The position numbers were made by a program. From assembly GCF_022846255.1 (NCBI RefSeq), contig NZ_AP025682.1: a stretch of 64,000 nt of DNA. One strand, written 5' to 3'. Positions within the stretch are counted from its first letter, which is position 1. The number at the start of each line of letters is the position of its first letter. Shown here one piece after another: positions 1 through 1,234 of this stretch. The stretch is from Escherichia coli. GTDB taxonomy: Bacteria > Pseudomonadota > Gammaproteobacteria > Enterobacterales > Enterobacteriaceae.

Positions 1-1234
1 GATGGCTGTTGAAATTGGCCGTGAGCACACCCTGTTTATGCACCTGACGCTGGTGCCGTACATGGCAGCGTCTGGTGAAGTCAAAACCAAACCGACTCAG
101 CACTCTGTAAAAGAGCTGCTTTCAATCGGTATCCAGCCTGATATCCTGATTTGTCGTTCAGATCGCGCCGTTCCGGCGAACGAACGTGCGAAGATTGCAT
201 TGTTCTGTAATGTTCCGGAAAAAGCGGTTATTTCTCTGAAAGACGTCGATTCCATCTATAAAATTCCGGGCCTGTTGAAATCTCAGGGGCTGGACGATTA
301 TATTTGTAAACGATTCAGCTTAAACTGCCCGGAAGCGAATCTGTCCGAATGGGAACAGGTTATCTTCGAAGAAGCGAATCCGGTAAGTGAAGTCACCATT
401 GGTATGGTCGGCAAATACATTGAGCTGCCGGATGCATACAAATCCGTGATCGAAGCACTGAAACACGGTGGGCTGAAGAATCGTGTCAGCGTCAACATCA
501 AACTGATCGATTCACAAGATGTTGAAACGCGCGGCGTTGAAATCCTCAAAGGTCTGGACGCAATCCTCGTACCTGGCGGTTTCGGCTATCGTGGCGTAGA
601 AGGCATGATTACGACCGCGCGTTTTGCGCGTGAGAACAATATTCCTTATCTGGGCATTTGCCTGGGTATGCAGGTGGCGTTAATTGATTACGCTCGCCAT
701 GTTGCCAACATGGAGAACGCCAACTCTACGGAATTTGTGCCAGACTGTAAGTACCCGGTTGTGGCGCTGATTACCGAGTGGCGCGATGAAAACGGCAACG
801 TTGAAGTTCGTAGCGAGAAGAGCGATCTCGGCGGTACCATGCGTCTCGGCGCACAGCAGTGCCAGTTGGTTGACGATAGCCTGGTTCGCCAGCTGTACAA
901 TGCGCCGACAATTGTTGAGCGTCATCGTCACCGTTACGAAGTCAACAACATGCTGTTGAAACAGATTGAAGATGCAGGTCTGCGCGTTGCGGGCCGTTCC
1001 GGGGATGATCAGTTGGTCGAGATCATCGAAGTTCCGAATCATCCGTGGTTTGTGGCTTGCCAGTTCCATCCGGAGTTTACTTCTACTCCACGTGATGGTC
1101 ACCCGCTGTTTGCAGGCTTTGTGAAAGCCGCCAGCGAGTTCCAGAAACGTCAGGCGAAGTAAGTAAAAAAGTTAGAACGGCAACGCGTACCCTGGGTACG
1201 CGTTGTTTGTCTGGAGTTTCAGTTTAACTAGTGA

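What the first reader, a model, noticed from the sequence alone, without database searches (positions are those of the whole stretch)
1181..1205. Strong stem-loop between pyrG and eno
An 11-12 bp near-perfect hairpin sits inside the operon between pyrG stop and eno start. It fits a partial terminator or RNA processing site that uncouples eno from pyrG expression.
Basis: seen in the sequence. Interest (0 to 1): 0.15.

Follow-up and report, generated by a model that had tools for sequence, protein, structure and literature searches.

The report
Known RNase III hairpin between pyrG and eno
The stem-loop between the E. coli CTP synthase and enolase genes is real and conserved, but it is already known as the place where RNase III (followed by RNase G/E) cuts the pyrG-eno transcript, so it is not a new finding.

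Summary
Window 1181-1205 is a perfect 11-bp inverted repeat with a 3-nt loop, and G-U pairs extend it to 13 bp. It lies in the 87-nt spacer between the pyrG stop (1162) and the eno start (1250). Folding energy is -17 to -20 kcal/mol (z about -4.6). Such hairpins are about 50 times rarer in shuffled sequence.

The hairpin is single-copy and present in 5425 of 5426 complete E. coli genomes. A hairpin occupies the same place across Enterobacterales and four Vibrio species, with different stem sequences. Seven of 11 stem pairs show compensatory double changes, so an RNA (or single-strand) structure is under selection, not a DNA sequence motif.

It is already described. Published K-12 work maps RNase III-dependent 5' ends at -77 and -27 from the eno ATG (window 1173 and 1223). 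It also maps an RNase G site that leaves an 18-nt leader (1232) and an RNase E site in the spacer. Lee et al. 2019 explicitly discuss removal of this "large hairpin".

Verdict: already known, low interest.

The parts
1160..1162 (+). pyrG stop codon (TAA)
   Evidence: ORF 2..1162; annotated as pyrG in all matching E. coli genomes
1181..1205 (+). Core hairpin: arms 1181-1191 and 1195-1205 (11 bp, perfect), loop CUG 1192-1194
   Evidence: Covariation across 47 species sequences: 7 of 11 stem pairs show changes on both sides and 98% of cells are paired. RNAalifold recovers the same helix
1179..1207 (+). Hairpin extended by two G-U pairs (G1180-U1206 and G1179-U1207), giving 13 bp
   Evidence: MFE. 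Pair probabilities are 0.85 and 0.47. Only one-sided GU/AU changes occur across species
1172..1214 (+). Possible composite helix. The lower stem UUAGA (1172-1176) pairs with UCUGG (1210-1214) and is separated from the core by a 2x2 internal loop. It totals about 18 bp, close to RNase III substrate size. Predicted only.
   Evidence: -23.5 against -20.1 kcal/mol for the core alone, with pair probabilities of 0.1-0.35. 88% of cells are paired across species, with no double changes. An alternative lower stem, 1171-1178 with 1216-1223, fits the published -77/-27 pair better. It is unfavourable in E. coli (-16.8 kcal/mol) and also shows no informative covariation
1173..1173 (+). Published 5' end at -77 from the eno ATG. 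It was called promoter enoP6 and later reassigned to an RNase III-dependent cleavage.
   Evidence: Olvera 2009, PMC2759082; Lee 2019, PMC6872547. The coordinate was converted from distance to the ATG and is good to about 1 nt
1223..1223 (+). Published 5' end at -27 from the eno ATG. It was called enoP4-P5 and later reassigned to an RNase III-dependent cleavage. According to Lee et al., one of the two reassigned ends (their site 3) accumulates in an rng deletion; which coordinate that is was not established here.
   Evidence: The local sequence CAG|UUUAA also fits the RN|WUU motif of RNase E/G (motif recalled from my own knowledge)
1232..1232 (+). RNase G-dependent 5' end that leaves an 18-nt eno leader
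   Evidence: Clarke 2014, PMC4191395. The coordinate is inferred from the stated 18-nt leader
1206..1230 (+). Conserved single-stranded tract UUUGUCUGGAGUUU(C/U)AGUUUAAC just 3' of the hairpin. It is more conserved than the stem sequence.
   Evidence: Alignment A2; IGR listing
1238..1243 (+). eno Shine-Dalgarno sequence GAGGAA
   Evidence: Sequence; invariant in A2
1250..2548 (+). eno coding sequence
1497..1524 (-). Sigma-70-like promoter match on the minus strand inside eno (TTGTCA-16-TAGCAT). It falls in the +200..+320 interval where Lee et al. place the promoter of a cis-antisense RNA that crosses the hairpin.
   Evidence: consensus match only; Lee 2019

Best explanation
The hairpin is an RNA structure in the pyrG-eno intercistronic spacer, which is also the eno 5' UTR. 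Its likely function is as an endonucleolytic processing module.

Transcripts that start at the pyrG promoter, or at eno promoters inside pyrG, all run through it. The folded helix is cut in an RNase III-dependent way on both sides of its base, giving 5' ends at about -77 and -27 from the eno ATG. The helix may include a lower stem, or may be duplexed with a cis-antisense RNA. Cleavage separates the pyrG and eno halves and removes the hairpin from the eno leader. It leaves a 5'-monophosphate, single-stranded, U-rich leader that RNase G (and RNase E) then cut at about -18. That second cut shortens the leader and inactivates the message.

Shown here: the structure, its non-random nature and its conservation with covariation. 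Shown in the literature: rnc- and rng-dependence of the ends, and reporter effects of the 87-nt region. Inferred: that the 11-13 bp core plus a lower stem is itself the RNase III substrate, and the direction of the effect on translation.
For: Structure:
- Searches give dG of -17 to -20 kcal/mol, z about -4.6 and pair probability of at least 0.99.
- It is non-random: 6 such hairpins in the window against 0.11 in shuffles.
- It is single copy, so not a REP-type repeat.
- It is present in 5425 of 5426 complete E. coli genomes, with sampled variation only outside the hairpin.

Conservation:
- pyrG sits next to eno in 79 of 80 species loci, and nearly every spacer has a hairpin at the same relative position.
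- In the 47-sequence alignment, 7 of 11 core pairs change on both sides and 98.1% of cells are paired, against 32-56% when the partner is slid. No shuffle out of 500 reaches the observed covariation score.
- RNAalifold finds the helix independently.

Literature:
- Paired RNase III sites lie between pyrG and eno and prime eno for RNase G (PMC4681348).
- An RNase E site lies in the spacer, and an RNase G site leaves an 18-nt leader (PMC4191395).
[quoted passage not shown] The -87..+60 region is sufficient for RNase III/G responsiveness of a cat reporter, and removal of a "large hairpin" is proposed (PMC6872547).
- The -27 and -77 ends were mapped earlier by 5'RACE, and no promoter could be predicted for them (PMC2759082).
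Against: - Lee et al. report that purified RNase III cut a synthetic eno hairpin RNA at sites that did not match the in vivo ends. Only one in vivo site was reproduced, and only when a cis-antisense RNA was added. The hairpin alone may therefore not be the true substrate.
- The core is only 11-13 bp, shorter than the roughly 20 bp typical of RNase III substrates.
- Both candidate lower stems have low predicted probability and no compensatory changes.
- With lower stem A, the 2-nt-staggered partner of a cut at 1173 would give a 5' end near 1216, not 1223.
- My folding finds no clear change in Shine-Dalgarno accessibility after the hairpin is removed. The proposed translational benefit is not evident in silico.
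- Olvera et al. found that a 105-bp fragment carrying enoP4-P5 conferred Cm resistance, so some true promoter activity at -27 cannot be excluded.
- I could not read Ow et al. 2003, or the figures of any paper.
Confidence: 0.75

Rival explanations
1. Weak (partial) intrinsic terminator. A fraction of RNA polymerases stop at the U-rich tract after the hairpin and give monocistronic pyrG mRNA, while the rest read through into eno. This does not exclude the processing role.
For: - The stem is GC-rich with a 3-nt loop and is followed by UUUGUCUG (5 U in 8) when the stem is taken to end at 1205.
- In the four Vibrio loci the equivalent hairpin is followed by TTTTAGTTTT, which looks like a terminator. 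The element may descend from a pyrG terminator.
- From memory, not checked here: Weng, Makaroff and Zalkin 1986 (J Biol Chem) described several mRNA species at the pyrG-eno junction, including monocistronic pyrG.
Against: - The consensus terminator scan did not call it, although it did call the eno terminator at 2594-2619.
- The first two U residues are predicted to pair with G1179 and G1180.
- No 3' end at K-12 coordinates 29079xx or 29080xx appears in the held Term-seq tables of Adams 2021. This is weak, because eno's own terminator is also absent from them.
- Photorhabdus, Xenorhabdus, Providencia and Arsenophonus hairpins have no T tract.
- Ten of the 79 related loci (at least five genera) carry 90-130 nt inserts inside the hairpin while keeping its base. 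That is hard to reconcile with co-transcriptional termination.
- All undisputed eno promoters (-212, -731, -760, -903) lie upstream of the hairpin. High enolase output therefore needs efficient read-through.
Confidence: 0.2
2. 3'-end protective hairpin for pyrG mRNA. After endonucleolytic cleavage downstream (RNase E/G in the U-rich tract), 3'-to-5' exonucleases trim back to the stable stem. This stabilises the upstream pyrG message relative to eno, as REP and other intercistronic stabilisers do. It does not exclude the main explanation.
For: - The stem is stable (-17 to -20 kcal/mol) and lies 18 nt after the pyrG stop.
- The structure is conserved while the sequence varies freely, and T tracts are absent in some clades, as expected for a purely structural barrier.
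- Long insert-bearing versions remain strongly folded.
- An RNase E site is documented in the spacer.
Against: - I found no 3'-end data that place a stable pyrG 3' end at the hairpin.
- Published RNase III-dependent cuts at -77 would detach the hairpin from pyrG rather than leave it as a cap.
Confidence: 0.2
3. DNA-level element: the palindrome is an operator for a dimeric regulator, or part of an eno promoter (enoP4-P5 with a start site at -27).
For: - It is a perfect 25-bp palindrome.
- Olvera et al. reported that a 105-bp fragment carrying "enoP4-P5" drove cat expression.
- The hairpin would cover the -35 region of such a promoter.
Against: - The stem sequence is replaced wholesale between genera while pairing is kept: CAACGCGTACC, GGCGGTGCACC, CAATGCACCC, CAACGCCCC, CAGGCGCGGGAC. 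This is the signature of RNA structure, not of a protein-binding sequence.
- No sigma-70-like promoter is found in the spacer, and Olvera lists "no predictions" for it.
- Lee et al. show the -27 and -77 ends depend on RNase III.
Confidence: 0.05

Closest known systems
The E. coli K-12 pyrG-eno intercistronic RNase III / RNase G / RNase E processing region (Ow, Perwez and Kushner 2003; Kaga et al. 2002; Romero et al. 2014; Clarke et al. 2014; Lee et al. 2019)
   Same: It is the same locus. The 25-nt hairpin is identical, and the only difference over 122 nt is at window 1177, A against G in K-12. The published -77, -27 and -18 ends flank the hairpin.
   Different: Nothing of substance. This report adds cross-species covariation, and the observation that the apical part of the hairpin tolerates large lineage-specific inserts.
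rpsO-pnp and adhE 5'-leader RNase III hairpins
   Same: In each case an intercistronic or leader hairpin is cut on both strands by RNase III, and the downstream message then becomes a substrate for 5'-end-dependent decay. Romero et al. group eno, pnp and adhE together.
   Different: Those substrates are long helices of about 20 bp or more that purified RNase III cleaves at the in vivo sites. Here the core is 11-13 bp, and in vitro cleavage of the isolated hairpin did not reproduce the in vivo ends.
Rho-independent (intrinsic) terminators
   Same: A GC-rich stem, a short loop and a U-containing 3' tail. The Vibrio counterparts look like genuine terminators.
   Different: The enterobacterial U tract is interrupted (UUUGUCUG) and partly paired. 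The scan did not call it, I found no mapped 3' end, and eno promoters lie upstream so read-through is required.
REP/BIME and ERIC intercistronic palindromes
   Same: A transcribed palindrome between genes of an operon that can shape differential mRNA stability.
   Different: This one is single-copy and locus-specific, with 1 place per genome in nearly all of 5425 genomes. It has no match to a repeat family and no Rfam hit.

Membership tests
RNase III processing hairpin | A double-helical RNA segment of roughly two turns (about 20 bp; internal loops tolerated) | tested here: inconclusive
   The core is 11-13 bp and near-certain. A composite of about 18 bp with lower stem 1172-1176/1210-1214 is predicted at only 0.1-0.35 probability and shows no compensatory changes. 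A sense-antisense duplex is the alternative proposed by Lee 2019.
RNase III processing hairpin | RNA ends that depend on rnc in vivo, paired across the helix with a 2-nt 3' overhang | not testable with these tools
   [quoted passage not shown] The figures are not readable here. With my lower stem A the stagger does not fit 1173/1223; with stem B it fits to within 1 nt.
RNase III processing hairpin | Purified RNase III cleaves at the in vivo sites | not testable with these tools
   Literature: not met for the isolated hairpin. One site was reproduced only when antisense RNA was added.
RNase III processing hairpin | Structure conserved by compensatory substitutions | tested here: met
   7 of 11 core pairs change on both sides, 98.1% of cells are paired, and slid controls give 32-56%. 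RNAalifold agrees.
Intrinsic (Rho-independent) terminator | GC-rich stem of 5-14 bp with a loop of 3-8 nt | tested here: met
   11 bp with a 3-nt loop. By direct count of the sequence, the stem has 7 G-C pairs; the fold is.
Intrinsic (Rho-independent) terminator | An uninterrupted or near-uninterrupted U tract immediately 3' of the stem | tested here: inconclusive
   UUUGUCUG has 5 U in 8, but it is interrupted and its first two U residues are predicted to pair. The consensus scan did not report the site. The T tract is absent in Morganellaceae and strong in Vibrio.
Intrinsic (Rho-independent) terminator | A transcript 3' end mapped at the U tract | tested here: inconclusive
   There is no entry at K-12 29079xx or 29080xx in the held Adams 2021 Term-seq tables. 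The eno terminator region (29065xx/29066xx) is absent too, so the tables are not exhaustive.
REP/BIME or other dispersed repeat | Many copies per genome that share a consensus | tested here: not met
   There is one site in the window. The median is 1 place per genome across 5425 E. coli genomes.
Curated RNA family (Rfam 15) | A score at or above a family's gathering threshold | tested here: not met
   Only chance-level matches (E at least 3.5), none near a gathering score.

The most novel reading that the evidence does not exclude
The functional unit may be only the basal helix plus the conserved U-rich 3' flank, with the apex freely replaceable. The apex has been replaced independently by unrelated 90-130 nt structured inserts in several lineages (Siccibacter, Mangrovibacter, Erwinia/Pantoea, Tenebrionibacter and the Limnobaculum/Budvicia group). 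On this reading the element is an ancient module, spanning Enterobacterales and Vibrionales. It began as the pyrG terminator and was converted in enteric bacteria into an RNase III-gated switch that couples glycolytic enzyme output to RNase III/G activity. That evolutionary conversion and the tolerance to inserts have not, to my knowledge, been described.
Probability: 0.25. Interest if true: 0.3.

Novelty: already known. Interest (0 to 1): 0.1.

Why it matters
Enolase is a highly expressed glycolytic enzyme and a component of the RNA degradosome. How its mRNA is uncoupled from the co-transcribed pyrG gene is a textbook-type case of differential expression within an operon through RNA processing. 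The hairpin is the structural centre of that mechanism, but the mechanism has been studied since 2002-2003 and was dissected again in 2019. Re-finding it mainly confirms that the scan picks up genuine functional RNA structures. The comparative data here (covariation from Escherichia to Edwardsiella, analogous hairpins in Morganellaceae and Vibrio, and insert tolerance) add modest support. They suggest the RNA helix is the selected feature rather than a terminator or a DNA site.

Tried and rejected
- Rfam search of 900-2800 in permissive mode gave only chance matches. An Rfam search of the ten insert-bearing loci found nothing.
- The consensus promoter/terminator scan found no promoter in the spacer and did not call the hairpin as a terminator.
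- I looked for transcript 3' ends at the hairpin.
  - The held Adams 2021 Term-seq tables have no entry, and eno's own terminator is missing too, so they are not decisive.
  - No supplements are held for Dar and Sorek 2018 or Altuvia 2018.
  - Weng 1986, Ow 2003, Ju 2019 and Lalanne 2018 are not held.
  - Further literature searches added nothing.
- I tested two candidate lower stems that would lengthen the helix to RNase III size. Neither shows compensatory changes, and stem B is energetically unfavourable in E. coli.
- I tested whether removing the hairpin frees the Shine-Dalgarno sequence in silico and found no clear change.
- I tested whether the inserts in the hairpin in other genera are one mobile element. 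They are lineage-specific and unrelated. Only Erwinia sp. 198 (L045) shows a weak ERIC-like core, with 6 of 22 mismatches to each ERIC primer sequence recalled from memory.
- The repeat-family (REP) reading was rejected because the hairpin is single copy.

Full report
**1. What is in the sequence**

The window begins inside pyrG (ORF 2..1162), and eno follows at 1250-2548. The same 200 nt are annotated pyrG and eno in 5425 of 5426 complete E. coli genomes. The spacer between the genes is 87 nt (1163-1249).

Positions 1181-1205 read CAACGCGTACC CTG GGTACGCGTTG, a perfect 11-bp inverted repeat with a 3-nt loop. Two G-U pairs can extend it to 1179-1207.

- As RNA, the 25-mer folds at -17.0 kcal/mol. 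The 37-mer folds at -20.1 kcal/mol, with a z-score of about -4.6 and 0-1 of 200 shuffles as good.
- In the 90-nt context, 11 pairs have probability of at least 0.99.
- Perfect hairpins of this size occur 6 times in the window, against 0.11 per dinucleotide shuffle.

**2. It is locus-specific, not a repeat**

The 25-mer occurs once in the window. A 43-nt query has a median of one place per genome in 5425 E. coli genomes. Rfam has no family for it.

Sampled E. coli variants differ only outside the hairpin. K-12 MG1655 differs from the window only at 1177, A against G, just below the stem. Published K-12 experiments therefore apply directly. The K-12 coordinate equals 2,909,191 minus the window coordinate.

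**3. Comparative evidence**

One scan of representative genomes with the Eno N-terminus returned 80 loci from Enterobacterales and four Vibrio species. pyrG lies directly upstream of eno in 79 of them. Almost every spacer contains a strong hairpin at the same relative position.

The stem sequence differs between genera:

| Genus or group | 5' arm of the stem |
|---|---|
| Escherichia, Enterobacter | CAACGCGTACC |
| Salmonella | GGCGGTGCACC |
| Klebsiella, Citrobacter | CAATGCACCC |
| Kluyvera | CAACGCCCC |
| Edwardsiella | CAGGCGCGGGAC |
| Photorhabdus, Xenorhabdus, Providencia, Arsenophonus, Vibrio | unrelated stems |

In a 47-sequence alignment, 7 of 11 core pairs show changes on both sides and 98.1% of cells are paired. 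Sliding the 3' partner gives only 32-56% paired. No shuffle out of 500 reaches the observed covariation score. RNAalifold recovers the same helix on its own.

This pattern shows selection on a folded single strand. It argues strongly against a sequence-specific DNA-binding site. The tract just 3' of the stem, UUUGUCUGGAGUUUUAGUUUAAC, is more conserved than the stem itself in Enterobacteriaceae.

**4. What is already known**

- Olvera et al. 2009 mapped eno 5' ends at -27, -77 and -212 from the ATG by 5'RACE. These correspond to window 1223, 1173 and 1038. They called them promoters, with "no predictions" for the first two (PMC2759082).
- Romero et al. [quoted passage not shown]
- Clarke et al. 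2014 list an RNase E site in the pyrG-eno spacer and an RNase G-dependent site that leaves an 18-nt eno leader, window 1232 (PMC4191395).
- Lee et al. 2019 (PMC6872547) showed the following.
  - The -87..+60 region is sufficient for RNase III- and RNase G-responsive reporter expression.
  - Four 5' ends in the UTR depend on rnc.
  - Two of those ends coincide with the former enoP4 and enoP6 start sites and lie across from each other in the predicted structure.
  - The authors propose that RNase III removes "a large hairpin" upstream of the Shine-Dalgarno sequence.

The -77 and -27 positions bracket the hairpin examined here. The element is therefore already described and experimentally studied.

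**5. Mechanism, and what remains uncertain**

The best-supported account has four steps.

1. All eno transcripts pass through the hairpin. They start at the pyrG promoter or at promoters inside pyrG.
2. RNase III-dependent cuts at the base of the folded region separate pyrG from eno.
3. The processed eno leader carries a 5' monophosphate and is U-rich and single-stranded.
4. RNase G (and RNase E) cut it at about -18, which inactivates the message.

Several points are not settled.

- The core helix is short for RNase III. Two candidate lower stems, 1172-1176/1210-1214 and 1171-1178/1216-1223, could lengthen it. Neither has compensatory support, and their predicted probabilities are low.
- Lee et al. 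found that purified RNase III did not reproduce the in vivo sites on the isolated hairpin. A cis-antisense RNA was needed for one of them. A minus-strand promoter-like match at 1524-1497 lies in the interval where they place that antisense promoter.
- My folding does not show a clear gain in Shine-Dalgarno accessibility after the hairpin is removed.

**6. The terminator alternative**

The tail UUUGUCUG is weak and partly paired, and the scan did not call the site. No 3' end is listed at the hairpin in the held Term-seq tables. Those tables also lack eno's own terminator, so this is weak evidence.

Three comparative or contextual points argue against termination as the conserved function.

- Morganellaceae hairpins lack any T tract.
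- In ten of the 79 related loci the hairpin's apex carries unrelated 90-130 nt inserts while the base is kept. A loop that large should abolish intrinsic termination.
- All undisputed eno promoters lie upstream of the hairpin, so efficient read-through is required for high enolase output.

In Vibrio the hairpin is followed by TTTTAGTTTT. An origin as a pyrG terminator is therefore plausible. Some residual termination in E. coli cannot be excluded.

**7. Verdict**

Novelty is "already known" and interest is low. The only modestly new points are the breadth of covariation and the insert tolerance of the hairpin apex.

Noticed in passing
L036, L039 (Siccibacter); L042, L048 (Mangrovibacter); L043, L045, L050 (Erwinia/Pantoea); L022 (Tenebrionibacter); L063, L071 (Limnobaculum, Budvicia): the pyrG-eno spacer just upstream of locus position 1501 (position 439 in L063): The spacer is 159-211 nt instead of about 80 nt. 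The clearest cases are Siccibacter, Mangrovibacter and Erwinia/Pantoea, where a 90-130 nt strongly folding insert sits inside the hairpin and the stem base and 3' flank are kept. The inserts are lineage-specific and unrelated to one another. Only L045 shows a weak ERIC-like core. Rfam finds nothing.
   Followed up: partly
window 2603-3949 (-): An IS4-family transposase ORF of 448 aa (Pfam Nterm_IS4 and DDE_Tnp_1) lies immediately downstream of the eno terminator. In K-12 the next gene there is ygcG, so this strain carries an insertion sequence beside eno.
   Followed up: partly
window 2594-2619 (+), with 2576-2589 (-): The eno terminator is a perfect 11-bp stem followed by TCTTTTT. A second small terminator-like hairpin faces the other way just upstream, so the pair may act as a bidirectional terminator.
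   Followed up: no
window 1497-1524 (-): A sigma-70-like promoter match (TTGTCA-16-TAGCAT) lies antisense inside eno, within the +200..+320 interval where Lee et al. 2019 place the promoter of a cis-antisense RNA that crosses the pyrG-eno spacer.
   Followed up: no
window 15642-15681, 42065-42099, 48939-48967, 3937-3966: There are four other perfect hairpins with arms of 11-16 bp and loops of 7-9 nt. The 16-bp one at 15642-15681 is the strongest in the window. None was examined.
   Followed up: no
window 1177: This is the only difference from K-12 MG1655 over the 122 nt around the spacer (A here, G in K-12). It lies in the predicted internal loop just below the hairpin. About 2000 of 5425 E. 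coli genomes differ from the window by roughly one base in the 43-nt query (95-99% identity band).
   Followed up: partly
window 1206-1212 with 1238-1243: RNAalifold and the E. coli MFE pair part of the conserved UUUGUCU tract with the eno Shine-Dalgarno region. All the columns involved are invariant, so there is no covariation evidence for or against an anti-SD pairing.
   Followed up: partly
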